In this document: one piece after another, positions 8,054-64,000 of the stretch
Position numbering within the stretch: the stretch's first letter is position 1
Layout of the letters: every line of letters begins with the position of its first letter
DNA from: an uncultured Gemmatimonadales bacterium
GTDB taxonomy: Bacteria; Gemmatimonadota; Gemmatimonadetes; Gemmatimonadales; Gemmatimonadaceae
Reading direction: 5' to 3'
DNA: 64,000 bases
NCBI GenBank assembly: GCA_963851265.1
Contig: CAWKNZ010000002.1
Span: 1 to 64,000, forward strand
The notes under the pieces: model-generated
Told to the model about the DNA's origin: nothing
Seen by the model: the letters and a program-made list of their open reading frames with translations, nothing else
Database searches by the model: none
Position numbers and translations under genes: made by a program

Positions 8054-8239
8054 ATGAAAGAATATCAGGCGGTCGTCGTCCGTCTGACGCGCCACCTCCG
8101 CGATGACGAGGACGCGCTCACCGACCTGTTCAACGAGCGCAGCCGCGGGGGCTGGATTCCGACGATGATGTCGCAGGACGCCCTGCGCCTCACGGTCGTC
8201 TTCGAACGCGAACTCGGCGCCGACGCGCAGCCGGCCTAA
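8054..8239 (+). CDS. Small hypothetical protein (DUF4177-like)
   Basis: MKEYQAVVV...LFNERSRGGW...VVFERE pattern; normal codon usage. Confidence 0.65.
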   Translation: MKEYQAVVVRLTRHLRDDEDALTDLFNERSRGGWIPTMMSQDALRLTVVFERELGADAQPA

Positions 8240-8311
8240 CGGTTCTCCCCGCGCGCCCACCGTGCGGCGCGGGCGCACCCTGGCCCCGGGCTTGAACCTA
8301 CCGCGCGGCAG

Positions 8312-10507
8312 ATGCCGATCCGACCGCCCCGCCGCCTGCCGCTCGCGCTGACCGCGGTGTGCGCACCGTTGTGCGCCCTGCTCATCGCCACCGATGCCCG
8401 TTGTGGCGCGGCCGTCGCGGCTCGCGCCGACCGTGGCGCGCCGCCCCCCGACTCCGCCACCGTGCGCCGCACCGCCGACCTCGTCCGCCTCGGGCGGGAC
8501 GTGGAGCGGGCCGCCCTCGGTCCGGACGGCCGTCCCGACCCCACGCACGCCGATTCGGCGCGGCGGAGCTACCTCGCCGCCGCCGCGCTCGTGCCCGAGG
8601 TCGGTGATTGGCTGCGACTGCGTGCCGCCGGCGTGACGACTGACGCCGGGCAGCGCGCCGCGTTCCTCCGCAATCTCGCCGTACCCGCCGCGCGCGAGCG
8701 CGCGCCGCTCGTCGCCGCCGTCGCCCGCGCCCGCGCGGGCGACCTCGCCGGCGCGGCCGCCGCACTCGATTCGCTCGGTCGCCCGGCCCAGGCGCTCGGC
8801 GTCCGCTTGCAGGGCGCGACCGACCCCGACGCGCGGCGCGCCGTGCGCCGCGCGCTCCTCGATCTTCTGCCGAGCACGACCGACACCCTGGCGACGCCGG
8901 GGCCCGCATCCGCCGCCGGCGTCGCGGAAGCGCCGCGCGAGCGGGCGCGGGCGGCCGCCGTGCTGCTCGACAGCGCCTTCGCGGGCGACGTCGCCGCCCC
9001 GCTCGCGCCCGCGGAGCGCCTGCGCGTCGCGCGCGCGCTCGCCGACGTGCGCGACCAGCCCACGCTCCGGCGCGCCGCCGCGGCGTTCGCCGCGGCGCGG
9101 AGCGCGCCCGACGCCCCCACCACCCCCGCCGACCGCTTCACCGAGGCGGGCGTCCTCGCCCGTCTCGGGCGGTGGCGCGAGGCGGCCGCGCTGTACGCCG
9201 CGCTCCAGGGCGCGCCCGCGCCGCTCGGCCCGTCGGCGGCGTACGAGCGTGCGCACGCCCTCGTGCGGGCGGGCGACGCGACGGCCGCGCGCTCCGCGCT
9301 CCGCGCGCTGGCCGACGCGTCCACTGCCTCCGGCGCCGCGGACACCGCGGCCGCCGCTGCCCGCTTCCTCCTCGCCGAACTCACGGCGGACGACGGGCGG
9401 GAGGCCGAGGCGCGCGCGGAGTACCTGCGCGTGGCGCGCGAGCAGCCGAACTCGCGGTGGGCGCCGCTCGCGCGGTTTCGCGCGGGGGTGATCGCGCTCG
9501 CGAGCGGCAACGCCCGCGCTGCGGGGGCCGACTTCGACAGCGCCGGCACCGGCGCCGGGCTGCGCGACAGCACGCCCGACGCGGCGTCGGTGGCGTCGAC
9601 CTCGCCAGCCGCAGCGTCCGTCGCCGCCGCGTACTGGGCAGGGCGGGCGTGGGCCGCGGCGGGCGACAGCGCGCAGGCGCGTGCGCGCTGGGCGCTCGCG
9701 CTCGCGCGTGACCCCGCGTCGTACTACGCCTGGCGCGCCGCGGTGCGACTCGGCCGGCCCTGGACGCCCACCGCTGCCGGCCCGGGCGGAACGCCGCCCA
9801 TCCCCGTCGACCCGGCCGCCGAGGCTGCCGGACGCCGCGCTGCACTGCTGGAGCGCATCGGCCTGACGCCCGAGGCGGGGTACGAGCGCGACTACCTCAT
9901 CCGCCGGGCCGGCGACGCGCCCGACGCCCTCCTCGCTGCCGCACACGCGCTCGCCACCGGGCCGCGGCCCGGCGCGGGCATCCGTCTGGCCGCGCGCGCG
10001 GTGGAGCGTGGCGCCGCGCGTACCCCGAGCGTGTGGCGGCTCCTGGACCCGCTGTTCTACGCCGACGCGCTCCGACGATCGGCTGTGGCCGCGGGGGTCG
10101 ATCCCGCGCTCGCGGCTGGGGTGATCCGTCAGGAGTCCAACTTCACCGCCGACGCCGTCTCGCCCGTGGGCGCGCGCGGCTTGATGCAGCTCATGCCCGA
10201 GGTGGGGCGGGCGCTCTGGCGCGGCGAGGGCGCGCGCGCGTGGTCGCCCGACCTGCTCTTCGCGCCCGAGGTCAACCTCGCGCTCGGGATGCGGCACCTC
10301 GCGGCCGGGCTGCGGGGCTACCCCGACCCGGCGTACGCGCTCGCCGCGTACAACGCCGGCGGGGCGCGCGTCACGCGCTGGCGCCGGCAACCCGGCGCCG
10401 ACGATCCCGAGCTGTTCGTCGAGCGCATCCCCTACGCCGAAACCCGGGACTACGTTCGCATCGTACTGCGCAATCGGGAGCTCTACCGCGCGCTCTACGG
10501 GCTGTAA
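8312..10507 (+). CDS. Soluble lytic transglycosylase (Slt-like, TPR-rich)
   Basis: IRQESNF, GARGLMQLMP, ALAAYNAG, IPYAETRDYV motifs. Confidence 0.92.
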   Translation: MPIRPPRRLPLALTAVCAPLCALLIATDARCGAAVAARADRGAPPPDSATVRRTADLVRLGRDVERAALGPDGRPDPTHADSARRSYLAAAALVPEVGDWLRLRAAGVTTDAGQRAAFLRNLAVPAARERAPLVAAVARARAGDLAGAAAALDSLGRPAQALGVRLQGATDPDARRAVRRALLDLLPSTTDTLATPGPASAAGVAEAPRERARAAAVLLDSAFAGDVAAPLAPAERLRVARALADVRDQPTLRRAAAAFAAARSAPDAPTTPADRFTEAGVLARLGRWREAAALYAALQGAPAPLGPSAAYERAHALVRAGDATAARSALRALADASTASGAADTAAAAARFLLAELTADDGREAEARAEYLRVAREQPNSRWAPLARFRAGVIALASGNARAAGADFDSAGTGAGLRDSTPDAASVASTSPAAASVAAAYWAGRAWAAAGDSAQARARWALALARDPASYYAWRAAVRLGRPWTPTAAGPGGTPPIPVDPAAEAAGRRAALLERIGLTPEAGYERDYLIRRAGDAPDALLAAAHALATGPRPGAGIRLAARAVERGAARTPSVWRLLDPLFYADALRRSAVAAGVDPALAAGVIRQESNFTADAVSPVGARGLMQLMPEVGRALWRGEGARAWSPDLLFAPEVNLALGMRHLAAGLRGYPDPAYALAAYNAGGARVTRWRRQPGADDPELFVERIPYAETRDYVRIVLRNRELYRALYGL

Positions 10508-10566
10508 CCGCCTACGCGGCGCGGCGCGCCACCCCTCTCCACGTCTCCTTCCCGGAAGCCGCCCTC

Positions 10567-11196: not shown

Positions 11197-11200
11197 GAAC

Positions 11201-11240
11201 GCGGGGGTACGCCTAACGCCAGCGTTAGGCGTACCCCCGC
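11201..11240. terminator. Perfect 19-bp inverted repeat between convergent genes (terminator/REP-like)
   Basis: GCGGGGGTACGCCTAACGC-CA-GCGTTAGGCGTACCCCCGC. Confidence 0.7.
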
Positions 11241-11246
11241 CGCGCG

Positions 11247-11558: not shown

Positions 11559-11806
11559 GTGGGGTACCTCGGTCGGGCGTGAGAGGGAGCGGCCCACCCA
11601 ACGCGCGGCCGGTGCCGGTCACGCGCGTCGTCCGGTGTGGGGAGTGGGCCCGGGTTCCGGCGGCGCCCACGCGAGATCCGTGCGCCCCGGCCCGTGTCGC
11701 CGCGGGTCCTGGGACTCCTGCGCGACCGGCCCGTCGGCACGACAGATTTCCATCTGGCTACCGCCGGCTACCGCGTGTGTGTCTCCTCCTCCCTCCCTGC
11801 CCGTCC

Positions 11807-12430: not shown

Positions 12431-12467
12431 CGCACCCACCGCGGCCACCGCTGGCCGGCGTCACGAC

Positions 12468-17237: not shown

Positions 17238-17267
17238 GGCGCGGGGGGCCGCCGCCCCGCCGGGCCG

Positions 17268-17726
17268 TTAGGCGGCCGCGGCGGCCAGCTGCGAGGTGCA
17301 GTGCGGGCAGCGCGTCGCGTGCCGCGACACGGTCATCGTGCAGAACGGGCACGGGACCGTGTCGGGCGTCGGCGCCGCGGGCGCGTTGTAGAGCTTGTTC
17401 ACGGCGCGCACCAGCAGGAAGATCGCGAACGCGATGAGCAGGAACGTGATGATCGTGTTGATGAACGCGCCGTAGTTGAGCGTCACGGCCCCGGCCGCCC
17501 TGGCCTCGGCGAGCGAGGCGTACGGCGGCGCGGCCTTCGTCCCGGCCTTGAGCAGGGCGTACTTGCCGCTGAAGTCCACCCCGCCGGTGATCAGCCCCAG
17601 CGGGGGCATGAGCACGTCGTCGACGAGCGATTTGCTGATCGCGCCGAACGCGCCGCCGATGATCACGCCGACGGCGAGATCGAGCACGTTGCCGCGCATC
17701 ACGAACGCCTTGAATTCCTTCCACAT
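17268..17726 (-). CDS. mscL: Large-conductance mechanosensitive channel with C-terminal Cys4 ribbon
   Basis: MWKEFKAFVMRGNVLDLAVGVIIGGAF; CPFC...CPHC tail. Confidence 0.96.
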   Translation of the reverse strand: MWKEFKAFVMRGNVLDLAVGVIIGGAFGAISKSLVDDVLMPPLGLITGGVDFSGKYALLKAGTKAAPPYASLAEARAAGAVTLNYGAFINTIITFLLIAFAIFLLVRAVNKLYNAPAAPTPDTVPCPFCTMTVSRHATRCPHCTSQLAAAAA

Positions 17727-18872: not shown

Positions 18873-18898
18873 AGGCGCCTAACGTCGCCTGGCGGCGC

Positions 18899-20227: not shown

Positions 20228-20935
20228 CGAGCACCTCCGAGGTCGGGTGCGCGACGGCCCGCACCAGCGGGCCCGCCGCGCACTCCCCGCCCGATCCGCG
20301 ATCCACACACGCGTCGCGCCGTCCCGAACGGTGGAGAACTCCGACGACACGTACGGTAGAGACCCGGACCGGCATGCCCCTCCCCTCGCGGGACGCGTGT
20401 GGTGCCGCATACAGCGCGCAGGCGCGAGGGTACGCCGTCGGACCGGCCCGCCTGACGGCGCAACGCCGACTGAGCCTCGGCACGGCCTAACAATCCCGTC
20501 CCGAGACTCCCGCGAGTGCTGTCCCGAGACGTTCAGCGGCGTCTCAGGACTTTCGCGACTGGTCAGTCCACCGTCGCCCGCGATTGCCCGTGGCGTAACC
20601 CCGTTGGCCGTTCGCGCCCTCGGCGCCCCCACGCGGCTGCCCTACCATGCCCACGTGCCCACTCGGCGCGTTCGCGCCATCCCTCCCCTGCATCACCCGC
20701 CCGCCATGCAGCCCCACGCCGCCCCGGCCCGCCGCCCCATCCCCGCTCCCGACGGACACGGCCAACCGCCGCGACACCCGCCACACCGCCCGCCACACGG
20801 CACGACGAACCCCGCACCCCACCGAAGCTGGCGCACACCGCGCACGACTGGTTGGGCATCCTACACCCCGCGTGTCGAACCCGCGCATCGCGGTTCGGCA
20901 CCAACCGCCACGACACCCCCCCGCCAAACCCGCAT

Positions 20936-22261
20936 GTGACCACCGACCGACCCCCCGCCGACCCCGACGGCCCAGCGGCCGTCCCCGAACTTCTCCCCGC
21001 ATCCGTCTACGGCCTCGACCCAACGACCGCACTCTCCGCCGACCTCTCCACCCTCGCCGGCCACACCTCCCCCCAGACCACCCCTCTGGGCGCGGTCGCC
21101 GCCCCGTGGCTCGCGATGATCGGGACGCTCACGCACGTCGGGTATCTCCACCCCCGACACCGCCCCGCCTACCTCCGCTCCGCCGCCGCCCTCTGGACCG
21201 AAGCGGCCCTCCGCTGGAACCAGCCCCGCTTCGCGCAACTCGGCGGCCGACTCAGCCGATGGCGGTCGGCATACCCAACCCTCGCCCTCGTCCGCGACCT
21301 GCTCTGGGCACTGGAACAGCTCGAGTCCGTCGGCGGCGTTCGCCTCGCCTACACCGGACTCATTGCCCTCACCGCCCTCGTCCCGCCTAACAGCCGACGC
21401 GCCGGCCACATCCTCGCCCAGTCAGGCCGCCCACTCCGCACGCTCGGCGCCCTCGAGGCGGCCCTCGCCCGCTACGAATCGGGCATCCGGATCGGACGCG
21501 CCCACCACGACCGGTGGCTCCACGCCCGCAGCGCACTCGGCGCCGGCGGCGTCCACACCTTCCGCGGCAACCACCCCGCCGCCCGCGCAGCGTTCGCCCA
21601 CGTACTCCGCCTCATGCCCGACACCTCGGTGCTCGCCAAGGCGGCCCACCATGGCCTCGTGCTCTGCAGTACCGCGGCCGGCGACTACGCCGACGCCCTG
21701 CGACACGGCTGGACCTCCTTCCGCACGCGACGCGCCGACGCCACCGCCCGCGCGGAAGCCCTCAGCCTGCTCGCCGACCTCTGCACCCGCCTCGGTCGCC
21801 ACGAGTCGGCCATCCGCTCGGCACAAGCAGCCCTCCAACTCACGTCGCTCGTCCGCCTGCGCATCTCACTGCTGCGCATCGCCCTCCAGGCCGCACACGT
21901 CGGCCGCTACGACCAACTGACCCGCCACTACGCCGGGGCACTCGCGAACTGCATCGGCACAGGCGGCGACCTCCACGAAGACGCAGCCGGGTGGCTCGCC
22001 CTCGCGGACGTGCACGCGGCCCAACGCGACACCGCCGCCGCCCAACGCTGCCTCTCCGCAGCCACGGCCCTCGCAACACGCTGCGGTTACCACGAGCTGT
22101 CGTTCAAGATCGAAGCAGCCCGCCACCGACTCCACTCGAAAACACTCGGTGAACCTCGGCATACCTGGAACGCCACGGCAACCCTCGATCGGCACGCGGT
22201 CGCCGTCCTCGACGCACTCGCCCACCTCCCGACCGATGCTGCCGCCCTCCTCACCCTCTGA
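20936..22261 (+). CDS. Hypothetical TPR-like alpha-helical protein
   Basis: Repeated TPR-like units (GALEAALARYESG, RGNHPAARAAF, GDYADALRHG, LGRHESAIRSA); the ORF is open from 20516, so the start is uncertain. Confidence 0.6.
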   Translation: MTTDRPPADPDGPAAVPELLPASVYGLDPTTALSADLSTLAGHTSPQTTPLGAVAAPWLAMIGTLTHVGYLHPRHRPAYLRSAAALWTEAALRWNQPRFAQLGGRLSRWRSAYPTLALVRDLLWALEQLESVGGVRLAYTGLIALTALVPPNSRRAGHILAQSGRPLRTLGALEAALARYESGIRIGRAHHDRWLHARSALGAGGVHTFRGNHPAARAAFAHVLRLMPDTSVLAKAAHHGLVLCSTAAGDYADALRHGWTSFRTRRADATARAEALSLLADLCTRLGRHESAIRSAQAALQLTSLVRLRISLLRIALQAAHVGRYDQLTRHYAGALANCIGTGGDLHEDAAGWLALADVHAAQRDTAAAQRCLSAATALATRCGYHELSFKIEAARHRLHSKTLGEPRHTWNATATLDRHAVAVLDALAHLPTDAAALLTL

Positions 22262-27234: not shown

Positions 27235-29766
<2,532 letters not shown>

Positions 29767-29846
29767 CCGCCTCAGCCGTTAGGCACGGTGGGGCGGACAC
29801 GGCGAGACGGGCACGGCCGTCCAGCCGTCCCGGTCCGGCCCGAGTG

Positions 29847-30951: not shown

Positions 30952-32010
30952 CTACGCGCCCGCGCCCGCCAGCCACGCGTCGTACCGCGCCGCGTACGCC
31001 TGCCGCTCCGCGTCCGGAAGGAACGCCGCGTCGAGCGCGTTCCGGTTGAGGCGCCAGAGCTCGTCCCACGTGAAGCCCTGGCGCGCGAGCAGCAGGTACT
31101 CGTCGACCAGCGTCGTCCCGAACATCGGCGGGTCGTCCGAGTTCACCGTGCACACGAGCCCCGCGTCCACCATCCGCCGCAGCGGGTGCGGCTCGCCCTC
31201 CGCGACGACCTTCAGCCGGTAGTTGCTCGTCGGGCACACCTCGAACGGCACCCCGCGCGCGCGGGCGAGCGCAACTACGGCCGCGTCTTCCAGCACGCGC
31301 ACCCCGTGCCCGATCCGCTCCGCGCCTAACGATTCGAGCGCCCCGCGAACGCTCGCCGCCCCCACCGTTTCGCCCGCGTGTGCCACCACCCGCAGCCCCC
31401 GCCGCCGCGCCTCGGCGTACGTCCCGGTGAACAGCTCCGGCGGGAACCCCACCTCCGGCCCGCCGAGCCCGAGGCCGAGGAACAGGCCGCGTTCGTGCCC
31501 GAGCGTCACGAAGTCGAGCACCGCGCGCTGCGTCTCGGGCACGTGGCGCGCGATGTCGGGGATGAAGCGCACCCGCACCCCGTGCCGCGCCTCGCCCGCC
31601 GCGATCCCGGCCTCCAGCGCGTCGAGCAGCACCTCGGGTGGCAGCGTCTGGAGCATGAGCGACGCGGAGAGGAACGCCTCCGTGTACACCACCCGCTGCT
31701 CCGCCTGCCGCGCGCAGAAGTGCTCCGCCATGAACACCCAGTCCTCGGGCGTGCGCATCGCGCGCGCGGCCGCCGTGTAGACCTCGATGAAGTGGTCGAA
31801 GTCGCGGAACGCGTAGAACGCGCGCCACGCCTCGAGCGTCGCCGCGGGCATCGGCGTCCCGTTGCGCGCGGCCATCGCCCACACCGCGTCGGCGTCCATC
31901 GCACCCTCCAAGTGCACGTGCAGCTCGACCTTGGGCATCTCGCGCAGGCGCCGGGCGAGGTCGGCCGCGACGGGCGCGGGCGGGGGAGCGACGGGAGAAA
32001 GGGAGGTCAT
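30952..32010 (-). CDS. add: Adenosine/adenine deaminase
   Basis: PKVELHVHLEG, AHAGE, RIGHG, CPTSN, NSDDP. Confidence 0.93.
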   Translation of the reverse strand: MTSLSPVAPPPAPVAADLARRLREMPKVELHVHLEGAMDADAVWAMAARNGTPMPAATLEAWRAFYAFRDFDHFIEVYTAAARAMRTPEDWVFMAEHFCARQAEQRVVYTEAFLSASLMLQTLPPEVLLDALEAGIAAGEARHGVRVRFIPDIARHVPETQRAVLDFVTLGHERGLFLGLGLGGPEVGFPPELFTGTYAEARRRGLRVVAHAGETVGAASVRGALESLGAERIGHGVRVLEDAAVVALARARGVPFEVCPTSNYRLKVVAEGEPHPLRRMVDAGLVCTVNSDDPPMFGTTLVDEYLLLARQGFTWDELWRLNRNALDAAFLPDAERQAYAARYDAWLAGAGA

Positions 32011-35719: not shown

Positions 35720-35779
35720 GACCCGGGCCGCGTCGCGTGCCTAACGACCGGCCTCGGACGCGACGCGCGCGGCGGCCCA

Positions 35780-37354: not shown

Positions 37355-38479
37355 GTGACCGCACCGTCCGAGCAGGACCCCGCGCGCGCACCCGCGTCTT
37401 CCGAGCCCGCGTCTTCCGCGGCGGCGTTTTCCAAGCCGGCGTCCGCACTCCCGCCTCACCACAAGCCCGGCGGCGGGTTCGTGAACCCGTGGCCGAGCGG
37501 GCGACGCGCCGGTGCGGCCGCGCTCGCGCGCTGGCTCGTCGTCGAGCGCGTGGCGCACCGGCGTGCCGTCGACCCCGACCCGCGCGTGGCGTTCCCGCGG
37601 GTGGCGAGCGCCTACGCGACGCCGCGCGCATCCGCCGACGCGATCACGGCGACGTGGGTCGGGCACGCGTCGTTCCTGGTGCAGCTCGCGGGGCAGAACG
37701 TGCTGCTCGACCCGGTGTGGGGAGACCGCGCGTCGCCGCTGCCGTTCGCGGGGCCCAAGCGCTTCACGCCGCCGGGCGTCGCGTTCGACGCCCTGCCCCC
37801 GGTCGACCTCGTCGTGCTCTCGCACGACCACTACGACCACCTCGACGCGCCCACCGTGCGCCGGCTCGCGGCCCGCGACCCGGGCGCGCGCTGGCTCACG
37901 CCGCTCGGCGTCGGCGCACGGCTGCACGCGTTAGGCGTGCCGGCCGACGCGGTGGCGGAGTGCGACTGGTGGGGCGCGGCCGACGCCGGGCCCGTGTCGG
38001 CGACGTGCGTGCCCGCGCAGCACTTCTCCGGGCGCGGCCTGGGCGACCGGGACCGCACGCTCTGGTGCGGCTGGGTGCTGCGCGCGCGCGCCGGCCCCGA
38101 CGGGGCCGCGGGGCGGGCGGTGTACTTCGCCGGCGACAGCGGGCTGCACCCCGACTTCGCGGAGGTCACGCGGCGGTGCGGCCCGGTCGCGCTCGCGCTG
38201 CTTCCGGTGGGCGCGTACGCGCCGCGCTGGTTCATGCGCCCCGTGCACTGCGACCCCGACGACGCGCTCGCCGCGTACGACGCGCTGCGCGCGGGGCAGC
38301 GCGCGTCGCACCCCGGCGCGCCCGACCCCGTGTTCGGCGCGACGCACTTCGGCGCGTTCAAGCTCACCGACGAGCCGACCGACGAGCCGCCGCGGCGCAC
38401 GCGCGAGGCCTGGGCCGCGTCCGGGCGCGACCCGTCGCGGCTGTGGGTGCCGCTGCACGGCGAAACGCGGGTGGTCTAA
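37355..38479 (+). CDS. MBL-fold metallohydrolase (NAPE-PLD-like)
   Basis: WVGHAS, SHDHYDHLD, PAQHFSGR, YFAGDSG, LPVGAYAPRWFM. Confidence 0.92.
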   Translation: MTAPSEQDPARAPASSEPASSAAAFSKPASALPPHHKPGGGFVNPWPSGRRAGAAALARWLVVERVAHRRAVDPDPRVAFPRVASAYATPRASADAITATWVGHASFLVQLAGQNVLLDPVWGDRASPLPFAGPKRFTPPGVAFDALPPVDLVVLSHDHYDHLDAPTVRRLAARDPGARWLTPLGVGARLHALGVPADAVAECDWWGAADAGPVSATCVPAQHFSGRGLGDRDRTLWCGWVLRARAGPDGAAGRAVYFAGDSGLHPDFAEVTRRCGPVALALLPVGAYAPRWFMRPVHCDPDDALAAYDALRAGQRASHPGAPDPVFGATHFGAFKLTDEPTDEPPRRTREAWAASGRDPSRLWVPLHGETRVV

Positions 38480-38634
38480 CAGTCGTCTAACAGCTGCGGG
38501 GGCGCGGGCGGGAGGCGATTTCCATCGACTCCGGACGAAACCGCAGCTATTTTTCGCGCGTTGGGCGCGGAACCCGTCGTCTGCGCCTAATTCTTGCGTA
38601 AGGCGCCGGCACACCTCCCACAGGAGACCATCAC

Positions 38635-39183: not shown

Positions 39184-39250
39184 CGCCGGGCGGGGCCCGG
39201 GCCTAACCCGCCCGGGCCCCGCCGCCCCGGGCCGCCGGCCCGGCCCGCGC

Positions 39251-40636
39251 ATGTCGCAACCCGAATCGCGCCCCGCGGCGCGGCCCGCGCCGCGCCTCGC
39301 CGTCCCCGAACTCGCCCTCGTCCTCCTCGTCGGCACCGCGGGCAGCGGCAAGAGCACCTTCGCGCGCACCCACTTCGGCCCGTACGAGACCGTCTCGTCC
39401 GACGCCTGCCGCGGCGCGGTCTCCAACGACCCCAACGACCAGACGAGCACGGCCGACGCGTTCGCCCTGCTCCACCACGTCGTCGCCCTCCGGCTCGCGC
39501 GCGGGCTGCTCACCGTCGTCGACGCGACTAACGTCCAGCCCGACGCGCGCCGACCGCTCCTCGCGCTCGCGCGGCGCCACCACACGCCCGCCGTGGCCGT
39601 CGTGCTCGACCTTCCCGAACGCGTCTGCCAGGCGCGCAACGCCGAGCGCGCCGACCGCCAGGTGGGTCCGCACGTCGTCGGCAACCAGCACGCCCAACTC
39701 CGCCGCTCCCTGCCCGGCCTGCCGCGCGAGGGCTTCGCCGCCGTCTACGTGCTCCACGCGGAGGCCGACGTCGACGGCGCGGTCATCGTGCGGCAGCCGC
39801 TCGCGAGCAACCGCACCGGCGACCACGGCCCGTTCGACATCATCGGCGACGTGCACGGCTGCGCCGACGAGCTCGAAGCCCTGCTCGCCGGACTCGGCTA
39901 CGCGCCCGACGCCGCGCCCGACGCCGACGGCGTGCGCGCCTGGCGCCACCCCGACGCGCGCACGGCCGTGTTCCTCGGCGACCTCGCCGACCGCGGCCCG
40001 CGCGTGCCCGACGTGCTCCGCACCGCGATGGGCATGGTCGCCGCCCGCACCGCGCTCGCCGTGCCGGGCAACCACGACGTGAAACTCCTCAAGGCCTTAC
40101 GCGGACAGACGGTGCAGCGGACGCACGGCCTCGCGCAGTCGCTCGAGCAGCTCGACGCCACGCCGCCCACCCTGCGCGCGCGCATCGCCGAGTTCCTCGA
40201 CGCGCTGCCGAGCCACTACGTGCTCGACGGCGGCCGGCTCGTCGTCGCGCACGCCGGTCTCACGGCGGAGCTGCAGGGGCGCAGCTCGGGCAAGGTGCGC
40301 GCGTTCGCGCTCTACGGGCAGACCACGGGCGAGAGCGACGAGTTCGGGCTCCCCGTCCGCTACCCGTGGGCGGCGGAGTATCGCGGGCGCGCGGCCGTGG
40401 TGTACGGCCACACCCCCGTCGCCGCCCCCGCGTGGGTCAACGAAACCATCGACATCGACACCGGGTGCGTGTTCGGCGGGCGCCTCACCGCGCTCCGCTG
40501 GCCCGAGCGCGAACTCGTCTCGGTGCCGGCGGCGCGCCAGTACGCCGAGCCGCGTCGGCCGTTCCTGCCCGCCGCCGACCGCGCCGCCAAAGACGACGGC
40601 CCGGCGTCCGAGGCGGACGCCGGGCCGAGCGCCTAA
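39251..40636 (+). CDS. Polynucleotide kinase-phosphatase (Pnkp kinase + metallophosphatase domains, no ligase domain)
   Basis: GTAGSGKST, VDATNVQ, DIIGDVHGC, GDLADRGP, GNHD, YGHTP, IDTGCVFGG. Confidence 0.9.
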   Translation: MSQPESRPAARPAPRLAVPELALVLLVGTAGSGKSTFARTHFGPYETVSSDACRGAVSNDPNDQTSTADAFALLHHVVALRLARGLLTVVDATNVQPDARRPLLALARRHHTPAVAVVLDLPERVCQARNAERADRQVGPHVVGNQHAQLRRSLPGLPREGFAAVYVLHAEADVDGAVIVRQPLASNRTGDHGPFDIIGDVHGCADELEALLAGLGYAPDAAPDADGVRAWRHPDARTAVFLGDLADRGPRVPDVLRTAMGMVAARTALAVPGNHDVKLLKALRGQTVQRTHGLAQSLEQLDATPPTLRARIAEFLDALPSHYVLDGGRLVVAHAGLTAELQGRSSGKVRAFALYGQTTGESDEFGLPVRYPWAAEYRGRAAVVYGHTPVAAPAWVNETIDIDTGCVFGGRLTALRWPERELVSVPAARQYAEPRRPFLPAADRAAKDDGPASEADAGPSA

Positions 40637-40652
40637 CGCGAGGCGGGCGGGG

Positions 40653-43206: not shown

Positions 43207-43793
43207 ATGATCGATTTCACGCAGCACGTCGCGACGCGCCTCCGGCGCTTCGCTTACGGGATCGCCGGGGCCACCCCGCGGCGCGACCCCGTTCCGGGCA
43301 GCGCGCAGCGGCCGGACGCGGCCGGCGCCTACGCCTGGCGCATCACCGACTGGCAGCGGCTCGACCGGTTCCTGCTCCTCGGGAGCACCGGCGGGACGTT
43401 TCACGTCGGCGCACGGCCGCTCACCCGCGAGGCCGCCGGGGCGGTGGAGCGCTGCCTAACCCAGGACGGCCCTCGCGTGGTGGCCCGCGCCGCGCTACCA
43501 CGCGTGGCGCGCACGGGCACACACCGCTTTCGCAGGTCGACGCGTTCGTGGTCTTCACGGACGACCTGACGCGGGTCGGCCCGGTCCGCCCCGCGGGGGC
43601 GCTCCGGCGGTACCGCGAGCGCACGGGGATCGCCGCGACGCTCGTCGCCGTGGGGATGGCGTCTAACGGCTTCGCGATCGCGGACCCCGACGACGGAGGC
43701 ATGATGGACGTCGTCGGGTTCGACGCCGCGGTGCCCGGCGTGATCGCGGCCGTCGCGCCGGGCGTGGGCGCAGGGGATCACGCCGACCCGTGA
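43207..43793 (+). pseudogene. rsr: Ro60/TROVE (Rsr) pseudogene with a large internal deletion and frameshift
   Basis: N-term AGAYAWRITDWQRLDRFLLLGSTGGTF...DGPRVV; C-term in another frame VDAFVVFTD...YRERTGI...GMASNGFAIADPDDGGMMDVVGFD. Confidence 0.85.
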
Positions 43794-45201: not shown

Positions 45202-46329
45202 GTGCCGCGCCGCCCCCAACTCCGCCCCGCCCTCGCGCCGGACCACCTCCGCCACGCCACCTACTCACCCAGCACGTCCGCACGCCGCCGCGTCCTCCTC
45301 GCCGAGGTGACCGCGGCGTGCGCGCCCCTCCCGGGCACCTACCGGATGCTCGGCGCGACCGGCATCGTGATCTACGTCGGCAAGGCGAAGCGCCTGCGCC
45401 CGCGACTCCTGTCCTACTTTCGCGCCGCGCAGAACAACCGCCGTCGCGACAAGCAGGCGCGCATCCTCCGCCACGCGCACGCCATCGAGTGGGAGTACGC
45501 GCACAGCGAGTTCGCCGCCCTGCTGCGCGAGATGCGACTCATCAAGCAGTACCGCCCCCGGTTCAACATCCTGCTCAACACCGACGAGGCTCCGCGCGGC
45601 TGGCTCGCCTTGAGCGGCGGGTCCGTCCCCTCGCTCCGCATGGTGCTGCGGAGCGACGCCGAGGACGCGCCCGTGCTGTACGGACCCTTTCGGCGGCTGC
45701 ACGAGTTGACCGACGCCGCGCGCGCCCTCGCCGACGCGACCGGCCTGCGCGACTGCGGCGCCGTCCGTCCCGACCCCGCGTGTCTGCGCGCCCAACTCGG
45801 CGCGTGCGCCTGCCCCGGGCGCGCCGCGGGCGCGACGCCCGACGACTACGCGCGCCGCGTCGCGGTCGCGCGCGACTTCCTCGCCGGGCGCACGCGGGCG
45901 CCGCTCGACGTTCTGACCGGGCGCATGACCGAGGCCGCCGACGCGCTGCAGTTCGAGCGCGCGGGCGTCATCAAGCGCAAGCGCGACGCGCTCGCGTGGC
46001 TCGCCGGGCGGCTCGAGCGCTTTCACGCGGGCGCCGACCGCCTGACGTTTCGCTACCGCTCGCTCGGCCACGACGGTACCGAACGCGTGTACCTCGTGCG
46101 CCGCGGCACCGTGCGCGCCGACCTGGCCGCGCCCGCGTCGCCCGACGAGGTGGCCGCGCTCGACGCGCTCGCCGCGCGCGTGTTTTCGGCGCCCGACGTG
46201 ACCGACGCCGACGTGCCCACGCACGACCTCGACGAGTTCTACCTCGTCGCGAGCTGGTTCCGCCGCCACCCCGAGGAACTCGCGCGCGTCGCACGCCCCG
46301 ACGTGGACGGCCCGGCGCGGCCGGCCTAA
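45202..46329 (+). CDS. GIY-YIG nuclease with UVR domain (UvrC N-terminal/Cho-like)
   Basis: PGTYRM...IYVGKAKRLRPRLLSYF, SEFAALLRE, PRFN, MTEAADALQFERA. Confidence 0.85.
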   Translation: MPRRPQLRPALAPDHLRHATYSPSTSARRRVLLAEVTAACAPLPGTYRMLGATGIVIYVGKAKRLRPRLLSYFRAAQNNRRRDKQARILRHAHAIEWEYAHSEFAALLREMRLIKQYRPRFNILLNTDEAPRGWLALSGGSVPSLRMVLRSDAEDAPVLYGPFRRLHELTDAARALADATGLRDCGAVRPDPACLRAQLGACACPGRAAGATPDDYARRVAVARDFLAGRTRAPLDVLTGRMTEAADALQFERAGVIKRKRDALAWLAGRLERFHAGADRLTFRYRSLGHDGTERVYLVRRGTVRADLAAPASPDEVAALDALAARVFSAPDVTDADVPTHDLDEFYLVASWFRRHPEELARVARPDVDGPARPA

Positions 46330-46392
46330 CCGGCGCCCGCGCTCGCGGGTATGATGGCCGTGAGCAACCACCCCGCCCCCCGCGATCCCGCC

Positions 46393-47541: not shown

Positions 47542-47794
47542 CGTTTCCGGATCGCACGGTCTGGGGGCTCCCGACGCGGCGGTCCGGGCCCCCGGCCGTT
47601 GGCTCGCGTCCGATCCGGCAGCGCGCGGCTCGTCGGCGCACGTCCGGTCCGCCGCCCTGCGGACGGACCGGGCGCGCAGGGTGCGGAGCGGGCGAGTGGG
47701 CATCGGCGGGGGCTGGGCGGGGGCGCGGGCGGCGCCTAACAGGCGGCCGGCGCCGGGCCCCCCGCGCGGCGGCGCGCCGGCACGTCCCGAAACG

Positions 47795-50046: not shown

Positions 50047-50108
50047 GCCCGCGGCCGCCGCGCCACCGGCCCGCCCCGCGGCCGGTCTAACACCCCGTTA
50101 GACTGGCC

Positions 50109-51668: not shown

Positions 51669-51971
51669 CGGGCCGGACCCTCGATCGGCGCCCGCAGCCG
51701 GCCTAACACGCCGTCCCGCGGCCCCGCGCCCGAACGGCCGCGCGCCCGAACACCCGCGCGCCCGAACACCCGCCGCTCCTCCGGCCGACGCTGCAGCCCG
51801 CCCCCGACGCGGCACGCCGCACGACCTCGTGCGAGATTTCGATCTGCGCGCCCAGGGCGGCCGCGAACGGCGCCGCGGCGAATGCGACGCGGCGCCGAAC
51901 CGCCACCCGTGCTCCTCTGCGGCGCCGCTGCGGCGAGTCCCGGCACGCGTCTCGCGCCTTCCCCGGTCATC

Positions 51972-56056: not shown

Positions 56057-56058
56057 CC

Positions 56059-57774
56059 CTACCCCCGGTACTCCGCCGTGCTGCGGACCGCCTTCCCGCA
56101 CGCCGGCCACGTCACCGGACGCCCCGTGCGCGGGTTGTTAGGCAGCGGGTCGATCCGGTCCCGCGGGATCGTTCCGGGGTCCTCGCTCGCCTGGTACGCC
56201 AGCATCGCCGCGAGCATCGCGTTCGACCGCAGGTCGCGCATCACGAGCTTGTCGTAGGTGTCGCGCGTCGTGTGCCACGTGGTCTGGAAGTAGTCCCACG
56301 ACAGCGAGTTGAGCCCGAACGCGGGCGCCCCGTAGCACGCGAACGACGCGTTGTCGCTCCCCCCCGACGCCGGACTGCCGCGATCGTCGAAGCGGATGTA
56401 CTGCGTGACCTCGGCCGGGATCTCGCCCAGGTACCGCCGCAGGAACGCCCCCGCGCCCGCGAGCCCGCCCGCGCTCATCGTCACCACGCGCCCGGTGCCG
56501 TTGTCCTGGTTGAAGAGCGCCTGCAGCCCGCGCACCACCTCCGGGTGGTCTTCGGAGTACGCTCGCGACCCGTTCAGCCCTTCCTCCTCGCCGCTCCAGT
56601 GCCCGACGAGGATGGTCCGCCGCGGGTTGGGCAGCACCTGCTTGAGCAGGCGCATCGCCTCCATCATCGTCACCGTGCCGGTACCGTTGTCGGTCGCGCC
56701 CGACCCGCCGTCCCACGAGTCGAAGTGCGCCGACAGCAGCACGTACTCGTTGGGCTTCTCGCGCCCGCGGAGCTCGGCGATCGTGTTGAACACCGGCTGC
56801 TCGCCAAGGAACTCCGATTGCGCGTCGAGGCGCACGCGCGGGCCCTGGCCGCGTTCGGCGAGGCGGACGAGCAGGCCGTAGTCCTCGCAGCCGACGTCGA
56901 AGCTCGGGAGCTTCTGCCGCGGCGACCCGAAGACCTTGTCGACGCCGGGGTAGCCGGAAAAGTTGTGCGTGAGCACGGCCACCGCGCCCGCGCCCTGCAG
57001 TGCCGCCTGCAGCCCCGTACCCCCGAGCCCCGGCGTGCCGGCCGCGCCCGCGGCCGTGAGACGCGGCTGCCAGGCGGTGCGCACCGAGTCCTGCCGCGCA
57101 CGCACCTCCGCCTGCTCCTCGGGCGTGCCGAACTCCTGGAACTGCGAGGCCGGGCGGCACGAGAGCGTCGGCGGGCTCGCGAGCACCGCGCGGCCGCGCG
57201 CGTTCCCGGCGGCGAGCCACGCCGCGAACCCGGCCGAGTCGCGCACGTCGGGCAGCAGCACCACCGCGGCCTCGACTGGGCGTCCGTTGGTCCCCGGGCT
57301 CCAGGCGAGCATCGTCGCCTCGAGCGTGCGCACCCGCGGCGCCAACAGATCGAGGTGCGCCGGGCCGCGGCGCCAGCTGTTGAACGTGCCGAACCGCTCG
57401 CGGCGCGCGGGAATCCCCCAGCGACGGTACTGCGCGAGCGCCCAATCGCTCGCGGCGAGGTTGGCCGGCGCGCCCGTGAGTCGCGGGCCGATCGAGTCGG
57501 CGAGCGCCTGCGAGAGCGCGGCGACCTGCGACCGGGCCGTCTCCTCGTCGAAGATCCGCCGGATCACCGGGTCGGTCGGCGGCGTGGTGCGGATGTACGG
57601 CGCCGTCGTCGGCTGCGCGAACGGGTTGGGTGCGGCCGACGTCGCCGCCGGCGGGGCGGGGGGCCGGGTCGGCGCGGCCGCGGGTGGCGCGGCAGGCGTT
57701 TGAGCGAGTGCGGGCGCCGCGGCGAGCAGCGCGGCGCAGAGCAGGGAAGTCGAGCGGTGGGCGGGCGTCGTCAT
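56059..57774 (-). CDS. M28 family peptidase (carboxypeptidase Q-like), secreted
   Basis: SAHFDSW, GATDNGTG, GEEEGLNGS, WHTTRDT. Confidence 0.9.
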   Translation of the reverse strand: MTTPAHRSTSLLCAALLAAAPALAQTPAAPPAAAPTRPPAPPAATSAAPNPFAQPTTAPYIRTTPPTDPVIRRIFDEETARSQVAALSQALADSIGPRLTGAPANLAASDWALAQYRRWGIPARRERFGTFNSWRRGPAHLDLLAPRVRTLEATMLAWSPGTNGRPVEAAVVLLPDVRDSAGFAAWLAAGNARGRAVLASPPTLSCRPASQFQEFGTPEEQAEVRARQDSVRTAWQPRLTAAGAAGTPGLGGTGLQAALQGAGAVAVLTHNFSGYPGVDKVFGSPRQKLPSFDVGCEDYGLLVRLAERGQGPRVRLDAQSEFLGEQPVFNTIAELRGREKPNEYVLLSAHFDSWDGGSGATDNGTGTVTMMEAMRLLKQVLPNPRRTILVGHWSGEEEGLNGSRAYSEDHPEVVRGLQALFNQDNGTGRVVTMSAGGLAGAGAFLRRYLGEIPAEVTQYIRFDDRGSPASGGSDNASFACYGAPAFGLNSLSWDYFQTTWHTTRDTYDKLVMRDLRSNAMLAAMLAYQASEDPGTIPRDRIDPLPNNPRTGRPVTWPACGKAVRSTAEYRG

Positions 57775-60612: not shown

Positions 60613-60623
60613 GGCCGACCGCC

Positions 60624-62264: not shown

Positions 62265-62313
62265 CTTGCGGCGGTTGTGGGATAATATGCAGCCCCCAAT
62301 GCATAACATCCCG
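62261..62313 (+). promoter_or_regulatory. arg operon promoter with two ARG-box-like sites
   Basis: TTGACT...TAATAT; TGGGATAATATGCA (62278-62291) and TGCATAACATCCCG (62300-62313). Confidence 0.6.
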
Positions 62314-63336
62314 GTCGGCATCCTTGGCGCGAGCGGCTACGCGGGCCGCGAACTTTGCGCCCTCGTCGCCGCCCATCCGCGCTTCACCCTCGCCTTCGCG
62401 ACCGCCGACCGGCGCCGCGGCGAGACCGTACGCGTGGGGCCGCCCTACGGCCCGCCCGCCGCGGTCACCTTCGTCGCACCAGACGACGCCCCCCTCGGCG
62501 ACGCGGCCCTCGTCTTCGCCGCCCTCCCGCACGGCGCCTCCGCGGAGTGGAGCGCGCGCGCCCGCACCACCGGCGCGCGCGTTGTCGACCTCTCGAGCGA
62601 CCTCCGCCCCGGCCACCTCACCGACGCCGTGCGGCAGGCGCTCGCGCCCGCCGCGACGTCGACCGGCATTCCGTACGGACTCCCCGAGCTCTTCCGCGAT
62701 CAGGTGCGCTGCGCCGACGTGGTCGCCAACCCCGGCTGCTACCCGACCGCGATTCTCGTCGCGCTCGCCCCACTCGCCCGCGCGGGGCTGATCCGCCCCG
62801 GCGCGACCGTCGTCGCCGACGCGGCGAGCGGCGTCACCGGCGCGGGCAACTCGCCCAAGGAAGAACTGCTCTTCGGCGAGGTGACCGAGAACTTCCGCGC
62901 GTACGGCACCGCGAACGGCCCGTCGGGCCCCTCGGCCAACGTCCACCGTCATCTCCCCGAGATGACCGCAGCACTCGGCGCGCTCGGCGCCGACGCGGAT
63001 CTCGTCTTCACCCCGCATCTCCTGCCGGTCGCGCGCGGCATCCTCGCCACCTGCACGGTGCCCGTCACCGAACTGCCCGACGACCCGCTCGCCGTGTGGC
63101 GCGACGCGTACGCCGGCGAACCGTTCGTCGAGGTGACCGAGGCGATGCCGGCGATCACCGACGTCCAGCGGCGCAACGTCGTGCGCGTCACCGCCCTCCC
63201 GGTGCGCGGCGTGCGCACGCCCACACTGCTCGTCGTCGCGGCCATCGACAACCTCACCAAGGGCGCGGCCGGGCAGGCCGTGCAGAACGCCAACCTCATG
63301 CTCGGCCTCGACGAGACGGCCGGGCTGCCGCGCTAG
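62299..63336 (+). CDS. argC: N-acetyl-gamma-glutamyl-phosphate reductase
   Basis: GASGYAG, ALPHG, ANPGCYPT, SGVTGAG, DNLTKGAAGQAVQNAN; alternative ATG at 62287. Confidence 0.96.
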   Translation: MHNIPVGILGASGYAGRELCALVAAHPRFTLAFATADRRRGETVRVGPPYGPPAAVTFVAPDDAPLGDAALVFAALPHGASAEWSARARTTGARVVDLSSDLRPGHLTDAVRQALAPAATSTGIPYGLPELFRDQVRCADVVANPGCYPTAILVALAPLARAGLIRPGATVVADAASGVTGAGNSPKEELLFGEVTENFRAYGTANGPSGPSANVHRHLPEMTAALGALGADADLVFTPHLLPVARGILATCTVPVTELPDDPLAVWRDAYAGEPFVEVTEAMPAITDVQRRNVVRVTALPVRGVRTPTLLVVAAIDNLTKGAAGQAVQNANLMLGLDETAGLPR

Positions 63337-63339
63337 CCC

Positions 63340-64000
63340 ATGTTCGACCAGGGATCGCGCGACCACGGCATCGTCGTCGTCAAGATCGGCGGCCGCCCGC
63401 AGGCGGACCCCGCGCTGCCGGCGGCTCTCGCCGGGGTGTGGCGCGCCACCGGCGGGCGCCTGGTCGTCGTCCACGGCGGCGGCGACGCGGTGAGCGAACT
63501 CCAGCGTGCCCGCGGTGTCGAGCCGCGCTTCGTCGGCGGCCGCCGCGTCACCACCGCGGGCGACCTCGACGTGCTCCGCATGGCACTCTCGGGCCTCGCC
63601 AACAAGCAACTCGTCGCGGCGCTCGGCGCTGCGGGCGTGCCCGCCTTCGGCTGCTCGGGCGAGGACGGCGCACTCCTCACCGCCACGCGCACGGCCGACG
63701 CCGCGCTCGGCGCCGTCGGCGTGCCGGCGCGCGTCGACGCCCCCCTGCTGCACCTCTTGTTAGGCGCGGGGCGGTGTCCGGTCGTCTCGCCCGTCTCATC
63801 CGACGCCGGCGCCCCCGGCGCGGCGCTCAACGTGAACGGCGACGACGCCGCCGCCGCCGTAGCCGCGGCCCTCGGCGCCTCCGAACTGTTCTTCCTCGCC
63901 GACGTCCCCGGCGTGCTCGCCGGCGGTGCGCGCGACGGGGGTGCCCCGATCGCCGAACTCGATCAGGCGAGCGCACACGCCCTCGTCAGTAGCGGCACGG
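63340..64000 (+). CDS. argB: Acetylglutamate kinase (runs off the window end)
   Basis: VVKIGG, VVHGGG, GRRVT, NVNGD, LADVPGVL. Confidence 0.92.
   Translation, partial: MFDQGSRDHGIVVVKIGGRPQADPALPAALAGVWRATGGRLVVVHGGGDAVSELQRARGVEPRFVGGRRVTTAGDLDVLRMALSGLANKQLVAALGAAGVPAFGCSGEDGALLTATRTADAALGAVGVPARVDAPLLHLLLGAGRCPVVSPVSSDAGAPGAALNVNGDDAAAAVAAALGASELFFLADVPGVLAGGARDGGAPIAELDQASAHALVSSGT

What the first reader, a model, noticed from the sequence alone, without database searches (positions are those of the whole stretch)
8234..63765. Dispersed, highly iterated heptamer GCCTAAC/GTTAGGC that coincides with rare codons
Seen by manual count: 23 exact copies starting at 8234, 11211, 11224, 17267, 18877, 20485, 21385, 27864, 29778, 31324, 33134, 33437, 35739, 36618, 37930, 39201, 40631, 43454, 46324, 47734, 51701, 56137 and 63759, plus GTCTAAC/GTTAGAC at 38474, 38485, 43661, 50085 and 50097. 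A rough zero-order expectation at ~74% GC is about 5 exact copies, and CTAA/TTAG is otherwise scarce here. Inside genes the motif supplies rare TTA (27865, add, TPP enzyme, 37931, argB) or CTA Leu codons, and it contains 5 of the 7 TAA stops I found. It occurs on both strands, often near gene ends. Inference: a DNA-level signal analogous to DNA uptake sequences, cyanobacterial HIP1, Chi, or a nucleoid-protein or methyltransferase site. I do not know of a description for this lineage.
Basis: partly seen in the sequence, partly recalled or inferred. Interest (0 to 1): 0.8.

Follow-up and report, generated by a model that had tools for sequence, protein, structure and literature searches.

The report
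Genome-wide spaced DNA word GCCTAAC
This bacterium and about a quarter of its family have the short DNA word GCCTAAC written hundreds to thousands of times into ordinary genes against their own codon habits, spread out so that copies here rarely sit within 300 bases of each other, which looks most like the 'self tags' some bacteria use when they take up DNA, although the protein that reads it is unknown.

Summary
Confirmed: all 23 copies are at the stated places (2.5 expected). The genome (Gemmatimonadaceae) holds 1,762 copies; 1,287 in genes against 73 under synonymous shuffling; 995 of 1,276 TTA codons lie in the word. The signal is DNA-level: both gene strands show the same graded flank rule (next base G 27%, A 10%, C/T 3-5%). 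Copies are kept in genus-mates about eight times more often than other rare codons, and avoid each other within about 300 bp in both orientations (79 pairs, 206 expected). The word is rich in 67 of 250 family genomes, patchy on the tree, and in cultured Gemmatirosa kalamazoonensis, whose published methylome does not list it. No strong replichore polarity, so not Chi or KOPS. It equals the integron attC core used here, but integrase does not track it; nor do the methylase, pilin or competence genes tested. Best reading (0.45): an uptake-sequence-like tag spread by biased DNA uptake or recombination; it lacks the terminator pairs and dialects of DUS/USS. Main rival: an intracellular DNA-binding protein (0.25). 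Reader unidentified. This scan noted the same word before on other DNA; my literature searches found no description.

The parts
8234..8240 (+). word; supplies TAA stop of a 61-aa ORF (8054-8239)
11201..11240 (.). intergenic 18-bp stem hairpin between convergent ORFs holding an inverted pair of the word (11211 +, 11224 -); one of only 6 inverted pairs within 30 bp in the genome
   Evidence: -39.3 kcal/mol, z -6.7
17267..17273 (-). word; TAA stop of mscL
18877..18883 (+). word; just after the S1/P1 nuclease gene, TAG stop of an unverified minus-strand ORF
20485..20491 (+). word; TAA stop of an unverified 110-aa ORF
21385..21391 (+). word as CCT-AAC (Pro-Asn) in a TPR protein gene
27864..27870 (-). 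word as TTA-GGC (Leu-Gly) in a PAS histidine kinase gene
29778..29784 (-). word, intergenic between convergent genes
31324..31330 (+). word as TTA-GGC in adenosine deaminase (minus strand)
33134..33140 (-). word as CCT-AAC in the TPP enzyme gene
33437..33443 (+). word as TTA-GGC in the TPP enzyme gene, 303 bp from the previous copy
35739..35745 (+). word, intergenic; an independent public contig covering 35733-36064 shows no difference from the window
   Evidence: (table 8, X1 record 3)
36618..36624 (-). word as CTA (Leu) in an NHL-repeat gene
37930..37936 (-). word as TTA-GGC in a metallo-beta-lactamase-fold gene
38474..38491 (+). two direct GTCTAAC variants; the first supplies the TAA stop of the gene above
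39201..39207 (+). word, intergenic
40631..40637 (+). word; TAA stop of an AAA_33/metallophosphoesterase gene
43454..43460 (+). word as CTA in an unverified 120-aa ORF
43661..43667 (+). GTCTAAC variant in an 81-aa ORF
46324..46330 (+). word; TAA stop of a GIY-YIG gene
47734..47740 (+). word in an unverified ORF or intergenic
50085..50103 (.). inverted pair of the GTCTAAC variant, intergenic
51701..51707 (+). word, intergenic
56137..56143 (-). word as CCT-AAC in a peptidase M28 gene

Best explanation
GCCTAAC(G>A) is a genome-wide tag read on DNA by a sequence-specific protein with graded affinity (shown: enrichment, strand symmetry, graded flanks, retention, spacing). Fragments that carry the word are taken up or recombined more often, so any mutation that creates the word at a tolerated place, often by way of the weaker GCCCAAC, is copied through the population, while GC-ward mutation erodes it. 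One copy per short stretch is enough, so a second copy within about 300 bp gains little; this gives the spacing gap. Lineages that lose or never gain the specificity sit at chance level. It works like DUS/USS but is not a member of those families.
For: 1,287 coding copies vs 73 +- 6.5 under within-gene synonymous shuffles; all four coding frames enriched 8- to 26-fold. Same flank rule on both gene strands: Leu-Gly frame G 781/2,872, A 164/1,535, T 26/506, C 23/812; Pro-Asn frame G 169/638, A 17/168, T 4/81, C 9/202. One-off variant enriched (TTG 8.8% of Leu in the word context vs 1.5-1.9% before GCC, GCG, GAC, GTC) and the commonest single-step counterpart in orthologues. Retention in genus-mates 16 of 28 and 14 of 22 where the residues are conserved vs 7-8% for other A/T-ending codons. 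Depleted in atypical genes (5% of opportunities at GC3 80-88% vs 27% at GC3 96% or more) and 0 in about 9.1 kb of rRNA repeats, as reported for DUS/USS (PMC7811141, PMC2397512 passages). Pairs under 300 bp: 41 vs 117 same strand, 38 vs 89 opposite, 0 of 60 permutations as low; a second USS within 100 bp adds no uptake in H. influenzae. A 45-kb stretch of core genes has 0 copies where about 15 were expected, so no local need. Competence kit present in this genome: ComEC, DprA, ComM, ComEA-like, PilB/PilT/PilC, RadC and an orphan FimT-like pilin ending in GRxR (motif per PMC8897410).
Against: No uptake was measured and no reader was found. Every competence gene tested is also in word-poor relatives (DprA 36 of 37 rich, 35 of 37 poor; RadC and HHH_3 58 of 58; ComEC 5 of 5). 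The orphan FimT shows no residue that tracks the word (18 rich, 16 poor, permutation p 0.23). Only about 51 of 1,762 copies have a neighbour within 100 bp and 6 inverted pairs lie within 30 bp, against 23% and 17% for USS. No dialects: the same core in genomes of 63-74% GC and no substitute dispersed word in 6 of 6 poor genomes sampled at 67-117 kb each. A 7-8 bp core is shorter than DUS/USS. A 300-bp scale is short beside neisserial conversion tracts of 0.6-1.7 kb. The spacing gap was not significant in the G054+L208 pool (33 vs 37; 19 vs 26) or G180 (89 vs 75; 29 vs 36). A 1-Mb plasmid carries the word at 0.77 per kb and a 15-kb integrase-primase element has 14 copies, which an intracellular mechanism explains as well.
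Confidence: 0.45

Rival explanations
1. The word is the site of an abundant intracellular DNA-binding protein (nucleoid organiser or loader of a repair or recombination machine) that covers or acts over about 300 bp; weak selection for genome-wide coverage keeps the copies and makes near neighbours redundant.
For: Graded flanks and strand symmetry; orientation-independent gap that ends near 300-375 bp; presence on a megaplasmid and an integrative element; one unchanged word across about 25 genera, like HIP1, for which a chromosome-structure role was proposed (PMC5861425 passages).
Against: 45-kb and 22-kb deserts of ordinary genes; 174 of 250 relatives have under 100 copies of the 9-mer; high turnover, 36 of 54 three-way columns private to one species; no clear helical phasing; the desert at parB was not seen in 6 of 6 other rich genomes. 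No candidate protein was found.
Confidence: 0.25
2. One reading: it recognises the attC crossover end CGTTAGGC (as a cassette-capturing uptake receptor, or an integrase-related factor), and the chromosome filled up with the word as a by-product.
For: The strongest form, CGTTAGGC, is the right-hand end of this genome's attC-like sites (C10:188936-203674, C6:1592) and fits GTTRRRY (PMC8876359 passages). Poor genomes of another family show the same word in attC-like pairs (G027, G029), as do 4 viral contigs, so its attC use is wider than the enrichment. Transformation feeds cassettes to chromosomal integrons in V. cholerae (PMC12614218 abstract).
Against: Integron integrase over cut-off in 24 of 36 rich, 2 of 4 intermediate and 26 of 40 poor genomes; this genome's intI is in two pieces. 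Other RYYYAAC spellings are barely or not enriched (ACCTAAC 1.0, GTCTAAC 1.5, GCTTAAC 0.13). Dispersed copies have no attC hairpin partner.
Confidence: 0.12
3. HIP1-like: a methyltransferase marks the word and methyl-directed repair or methyl-dependent uptake ratchets it up.
For: One large N6-adenine methyltransferase-like gene (Eco57I/MmeI domains) is present, and a non-palindromic word with a penultimate A resembles type IIG targets (recalled). Elhai links HIPs to cognate methyltransferases (PMC4390886 passages).
Against: G. kalamazoonensis plasmid NZ_CP007130.1 has 806 copies vs 44 for the control, yet the strain's SMRT methylome lists only RGATCY, ATGCAC and CCAGN7TCA (PMC3974934, whole text). 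The methyltransferase has strong matches in 35 of 37 rich and 36 of 37 poor genomes, with 2 discriminating columns, as many as label shuffles give (124 of 300 reach 2 or more). No C5 methylase in 4 of 5 and no N4/N6-beta methylase in 3 of 5 rich genomes tested, this one included. Graded flanks do not fit an exact enzyme site. Synonymous divergence is not lower next to sites (near saturation).
Confidence: 0.07
4. A polar replication or repair signal (Chi, KOPS, AIMS).
For: Non-palindromic 7-8-mer; 163 of 281 sampled copies on one complete chromosome have GTTAGGC on the leading strand (58%, summed by hand; gene orientation not controlled there).
Against: 877 vs 885 by strand; per-opportunity rates do not switch at the dif-like site of contig C2, whereas the KOPS-like octamer does. 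The 58% lean is what the word's preference for the Leu-Gly frame would give with a modest gene-strand bias (inference).
Confidence: 0.03
5. Translational control by rare TTA codons (bldA-like), context-dependent mutation, or an assembly artefact.
For: 995 of 1,276 TTA codons are in the word; one tRNA-Leu(TAA) gene; C-to-T from GCCCAAC is one step.
Against: Equal rates in the Pro-Asn frame, enrichment at stops (TAA in 125 of 259 GCC-stop-C contexts vs 308 of about 3,370 elsewhere; TAG in 83 of 90 GT-stop-GC contexts) and between genes (0.49 per kb). GCCCAAC is enriched, not depleted. Mutation alone gives no spacing gap or retention. Seen in 67 independent assemblies and a finished isolate replicon.
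Confidence: 0.03

Closest known systems
DNA uptake sequences: DUS of Neisseriaceae (receptor ComP) and USS of Pasteurellaceae (PpdA/ComN predicted, PMC12616744)
   Same: Non-palindromic word, thousands of copies, both strands, written into coding sequence, graded flanks, scarce in atypical genes and rRNA, more even than random, competence genes present.
   Different: 7-8 bp core, almost no inverted terminator pairs, no dialects found, patchy within one family, short spacing scale, no receptor or uptake data, different phylum.
HIP1 (GCGATCGC) and alternate HIPs of cyanobacteria
   Same: One unchanged word over a deep clade, overrides codons, conserved beyond codon need, patchy loss; a role in transformation has been proposed for HIP1 (PMC13756078 Discussion).
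   Different: Not a palindrome; no cognate methyltransferase; not listed as methylated in the one published methylome.
Integron core site GTTRRRY of attC/attI
   Same: Same letters; this genome's attC-like sites end in the word.
   Different: Over 99% of copies are single, in housekeeping genes, with no hairpin partner; integrase does not track abundance.
Chi, KOPS and AIMS
   Same: Short non-palindromic over-represented word.
   Different: No switch of strand at the terminus.

Membership tests
DUS/USS | Hundreds to thousands of copies beyond codon-aware chance, both strands | tested here: met
DUS/USS | Scarce in rRNA and atypical or recently acquired genes | tested here: met
   (GC3 used as proxy; it also catches highly expressed genes)
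DUS/USS | Many close inverted pairs serving as terminators | tested here: not met
   6 inverted pairs within 30 bp among 1,762 copies vs 17% of USS within 30 bp
DUS/USS | Lineage dialects around a shared core | tested here: not met
   same core in all rich samples, only slight flank shifts; no substitute word in 6 of 6 poor samples
DUS/USS | Competence machinery present | tested here: met
   also present in poor genomes
DUS/USS | Sequence-specific pilin receptor that tracks the word | tested here: inconclusive
   orphan FimT and two PilX-type clusters do not track it; other pilins not tested
DUS/USS | Word raises DNA uptake | not testable with these tools
   needs an uptake assay
HIP1/HIP | Palindrome | tested here: not met
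   sequence itself
HIP1/HIP | Cognate methyltransferase and methylated word | tested here: not met
   raw kinetics (GSE55390) not seen and 5mC is poorly seen by SMRT (own knowledge)
HIP1/HIP | Periodicity at tens of kilobases | not tested
   only variance-to-mean by window was run: under-dispersed at 0.5-10 kb, clumped at 50-100 kb
Chi/KOPS/AIMS | Strand polarity that switches at ori and ter | tested here: not met
attC site | RYYYAAC and GTTRRRY ends about 50-140 bp apart with an imperfect hairpin, bounding cassettes | tested here: not met
   met by a handful of pairs on C6, C9, C10; none of the 23 window copies has such a partner
REP/MITE-type repeat | Longer conserved unit inserted as a block | tested here: not met
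   flanks carry only codon periodicity beyond positions -1 and +7; orthologues mostly differ by substitution at aligned codons

The most novel reading that the evidence does not exclude
A third, independently evolved sequence-biased DNA exchange system, in soil-type Gemmatimonadaceae, whose receptor is tuned to the integron attC crossover end and to short fragments of about 300 bp: it would favour capture of gene cassettes and, as a by-product, write the integron core into the whole chromosome; the specificity was gained or lost at least five times in the family.
Probability: 0.15. Interest if true: 0.92.

Novelty: new variant of a known kind. Interest (0 to 1): 0.72.

Why it matters
Sequence-specific uptake tags are established for two proteobacterial families of host-associated bacteria, and HIP1 has lacked a settled function for decades. 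A word this strong in an abundant, barely cultured phylum, present in a cultured type strain, with rich and poor species inside one genus, makes the origin and loss of such tags directly testable. It may also be a practical key to genetic tools for Gemmatimonadota (add the word to donor DNA). The match to the integron core would, if causal, tie cassette capture to genome-wide sequence evolution.

Tried and rejected
Origin exclusion: a 45-kb desert over mnmG-parA-parB in this genome was not found around parB in 6 of 6 other rich genomes; two genus-mates are only thinned (23 and 28 per 80 kb vs 75 and 68 per 140 kb elsewhere); its genes are as alike to genus-mates as their neighbours, so it is not an obvious import. 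Reader candidates that do not track the word: integron integrase, ComEC, DprA, RadC, HHH_3/ComEA-like, orphan FimT, PilX-type of L044 (27 of 29 rich, 18 of 28 poor; a lean, but present in all 7 g54 genomes and in the poor G047 and G048), PilX-type of L045 (22 of 29 rich, 12 of 28 poor, not found in the complete rich G054), the core methyltransferase, C5 and N4/N6-beta methylases, and comM neighbours (9 rich vs 45 poor loci, no family in more than 4 of 9 rich and absent from poor). Phage test: 91 viral stretches matched a two-copy pattern, 80 were returned; 6 passed my enrichment flag (two are one contig), and all were local clusters, 4 of them attC-like arrays; none had dispersed host-like copies. 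This is weak: sensitivity is low and hosts are unknown. A primase query found no viral relatives; comM against phages gave nothing. Public runs held at most 15% of the words and the difference table was cut, so no population test was possible. Helical phasing of pair distances: none clear. The first RpoB tree had two wrong-frame rows; it was rebuilt with 27 rows, leaving out the short G005 and G078 fragments and G014, which had no match. Plasmid accessions CP007128, CP007129 and NZ_CP007128.1 were not in the collection. No structure or complex prediction was run, as no candidate justified one.

Full report
1. Observation. Dinucleotide shuffles give 2.53 +- 1.67, and 0 of 100 reach 23. By my gene calls and Pfam the exact copies fall as TTA-GGC in 5 genes, CCT-AAC in 4 (one unverified ORF), CTA in 2 (one unverified), stop codons in 6 (two unverified ORFs) and intergenic in 6. 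The pair at 11211/11224 forms an 18-bp stem.

2. Organism. The window is G000:C2:1-64000 of a 4.6-Mb, 73% GC assembly. The closest named records for its ComM protein are Gemmatimonadaceae, best a Gemmatirosa sp. at 84%. Gene calls are my own dicodon model (3,720 genes), so counts per gene class are approximate.

3. Genome-wide strength. There are 1,762 copies, 877 and 885 by strand; an order-2 Markov model expects 96 and ranks the word first among 7-mers with 50 or more copies. In genes there are 1,287 against 73 +- 6.5 in 20 within-gene synonymous shuffles. The word holds 995 of 1,276 TTA codons, 125 of 433 TAA stops and 83 of 743 TAG stops. All four coding frames are enriched: 995 vs 38, 199 vs 18, 70 vs 9, 23 vs 1. 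Non-coding DNA has 284 copies, 0.49 per kb.

4. The signal is on DNA and graded. The chance that a synonymous opportunity carries the word depends on the base after it, and in the same way on both gene strands: G 27.2% and 26.5%, A 10.7% and 10.1%, T 5.1% and 4.9%, C 2.8% and 4.5%. The base before it matters less. GCCCAAC is a weak form: 1,262 vs 463 in shuffles, and TTG makes up 8.8% of Leu codons in the word context against 1.5-1.9% before four other G-starting codons. Most other one-off variants are at or under chance; GACTAAC (2.0), GTCTAAC (1.5) and GCCGAAC (1.45) are mildly up. Beyond these flanks there is only codon periodicity, so this is not an inserted repeat. Inference: a binding protein with an affinity profile, not an exact enzyme site and not a translational device.

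5. Spacing. Copies avoid each other. Against permutations among synonymous opportunities in 20-kb blocks, pairs under 300 bp number 41 vs 117 on the same strand and 38 vs 89 on opposite strands; 0 of 60 permutations were as low. Coding-only neighbours under 200 bp are 10 vs 68. Control words of similar abundance show no such gap. The density recovers by about 300-375 bp. Near copies are still several-fold above the neutral level, which suggests redundancy and not prohibition (inference). In samples of other rich genomes the gap is clear in two pools (22 vs 38 and 22 vs 30; 16 vs 29 and 12 vs 20), not significant in two (33 vs 37 and 19 vs 26; 89 vs 75 and 29 vs 36, the last with many very close pairs in both observed and expected counts) and uninformative in one of 51 sites.

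6. Evolution. Where the residues are conserved, this genome's sites are kept in 16 of 28 (G001) and 14 of 22 (G004) cases, against 7-8% for other A/T-ending codons and 9-12% for TTG; 0 of 13 are kept in the poor relative G048, which has 1 copy in 120 kb at 75% GC. Turnover is high: 36 of 54 three-way columns are private to one species, often facing GTTGGGC or GCTCGGC, sometimes with a changed residue. Rates rise from about 5% of opportunities in genes with GC3 80-88% to 27% at GC3 96% or more, and about 9.1 kb of rRNA repeats have none.

7. Distribution. For YGCCTAACR in 250 family genomes, 67 have 390 or more copies (up to 7,058), 9 have 100-360 and 174 have under 100 (counted by hand). Among 127 genomes of the phylum outside the family, only the three of genus g102 exceed 140 (143, 282, 610); in the 7-mer count two genomes of a third family were above their control. 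Genus g54 is split, 5 rich and 4 poor. On a 27-row RpoB tree the label needs 7 changes, at least 5 forced by strong branches; the tree is unrooted, so gain and loss cannot be told apart. Six poor genomes sampled at 67-117 kb have 0-1 copies, as chance predicts, and no substitute dispersed word. Genomes flagged unpublished (G011, G050, G224, G243, G308, G335) enter only these tallies, as poor.

8. What it is not. Polar signal: a dif-like site lies at C2:1,368,968, where gene orientation and a KOPS-like octamer (both motifs recalled) switch; the word's per-opportunity rate does not. A sample of one closed chromosome leans 163:118 towards GTTAGGC on the leading strand (summed by hand, gene strand not controlled). 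Methylation: the named plasmid NZ_CP007130.1 of G. kalamazoonensis KBS708 has 806 copies against 44 for the control, and the strain's methylome paper (PMC3974934, whole text) lists three m6A motifs, none this word. I did not see the raw data (GSE55390), which could bear on this. The one large N6-methyltransferase-like gene is family-wide and shows no residues that track the word. C5 and N4/N6-beta methylases were not found in this genome (94% complete) or in G001 and G217.

9. The integron link, a lead from earlier scan notes, tested here. This genome has attC-like pairs that begin GCCTAAC and end CGTTAGGC, fitting GTTRRRY (PMC8876359 passages). Poor genomes and viral cassette arrays use the same ends. 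But integrase is over cut-off in 24 of 36 rich and 26 of 40 poor genomes, and dispersed copies have no partner. The identity of the letters is striking and unexplained; a reader tuned to cassette ends is possible.

10. Competence genes are intact in rich and poor alike: ComEC 5 of 5, DprA 71 of 74, RadC and HHH_3 58 of 58, an orphan FimT-like pilin with the GRxR end described for DNA-binding FimT (PMC8897410 passages) in 33 of 35 genomes searched. Its alignment gives no tracking residue (p 0.23). Two minor-pilin clusters do not track either. These were candidates I chose; no unbiased screen was possible.

11. Mechanism. Shown: enrichment, symmetry, graded flanks, a weak intermediate, retention with turnover, scarcity in atypical DNA, short-range spacing in this genome, patchy phylogeny, no listed methylation in one strain. 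Inferred: a sequence-specific reader. Most likely (0.45) it biases DNA uptake or recombination, so that word-creating mutations spread by drive, as modelled for USS (PMC7811141 passages); DUS density was linked to conversion-tract length (PMC2397512 passages), and a 45-kb desert shows that no region needs the word. Against: almost no terminator pairs (about 3% of copies within 100 bp of another vs 23% for USS), no dialects, a short scale, and full density on a megaplasmid and an integrative element. An intracellular binder (0.25) explains the last points as well. An attC-tuned reader gets 0.12, methylation 0.07, polar signals 0.03, translation, mutation or artefact 0.03.

12. Comparison and novelty. 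It works like DUS/USS or HIP1 but fails defining tests of each (see Membership tests), so I file it as a new variant of the highly iterated signal words and not as a member. Literature searches: 'GCCTAAC' anywhere (2,802 papers, the 20 listed unrelated), Gemmatimonadota with 'highly iterated' and 'motif', G. kalamazoonensis with 'methylome', Gemmatimonadetes with over-representation terms, 'GTTAGGC' with over-representation terms (3 papers, unrelated). None describes it; subscription papers are not searched. Other papers seen: PMC4390886, PMC5861425 and PMC12616744 as passages, PMC13756078 abstract and Discussion, PMC12614218 abstract. No supplements were read. Earlier AI notes of this scan report the same word in this and at least three other genomes; they are not independent support. 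In the lines shown to me they did not mention the spacing gap, the two-strand flank rule or the split genus.

13. Verdict. Real, strong, undescribed in what I could search, and testable in a cultured strain; mechanism not shown. Interest 0.72.

Noticed in passing
G000:C7:579717-585511 (L003:7718-13512); orthologues L209-L228: A two-gene module, an 1,141-aa Eco57I/MmeI-type N6-adenine methyltransferase-like protein plus an SNF2-type helicase, is single-copy in nearly all, syntenic and about 50% identical across the family (strong match in 71 of 74 genomes). That is unusual for restriction-modification-like genes and suggests a housekeeping role.
   Followed up: partly
G000:C1:182876-227962: 45-kb stretch over mnmG, parA, parB and mnmE with no copy of the word (about 15 expected); thinned but not empty in two genus-mates, normal in four other genera. 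Unexplained.
   Followed up: partly
window 1-746: The first 746 bases of the window repeat G000:C1:9247-9993, next to dnaN-dnaA; probably an assembly overlap that places this window near dnaA.
   Followed up: no
G000:C10:188900-215025 (L047, L048) and C6:1592-6044: Integron cassette array with toxin-antitoxin-like cassettes, IS481 and IS1182 pieces and two IS110 copies that carry the word just before the gene and in its stop codon; intI on C6 is in two pieces about 2 kb apart.
   Followed up: partly
L062 (G054:C4): A 15-kb repeated unit with a phage-type integrase and primase, 14 copies of the word and two attC-like pairs: a satellite-like element that may carry cassettes.
   Followed up: partly
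L245, L269, L272, L275 (viral contigs): Runs of attC-like pairs every 350-600 bp, i.e. integron-type cassette arrays on contigs classed as viral.
   Followed up: no
G000:C2:1368968: dif-like site at the switch of gene orientation; the two rRNA copies (818 kb +, 1,411 kb -) point towards it, one only about 43 kb away.
   Followed up: no
whole genome: CTAG is strongly avoided (observed/expected 0.18), also in poor relatives.
   Followed up: no
L120-L124 (G266): This word-poor g54 genome has ATTCCCG/AATCGGGA over-represented (31 vs 5.6); may be a REP-like repeat, not examined.
   Followed up: no
window 17862-18872, 39251-40636, 43917-45149, 45307-46329: Several nucleic-acid enzymes lie in the window: S1/P1 nuclease, AAA_33 plus metallophosphoesterase, RtcB ligase, GIY-YIG nuclease; no link to the word was tested.
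   Followed up: no
G000:C7:503000-524000: A gene run that looks, from its N-terminal sequences, like a methanopterin-linked C1-transfer cluster (label recalled, not tested).
   Followed up: no
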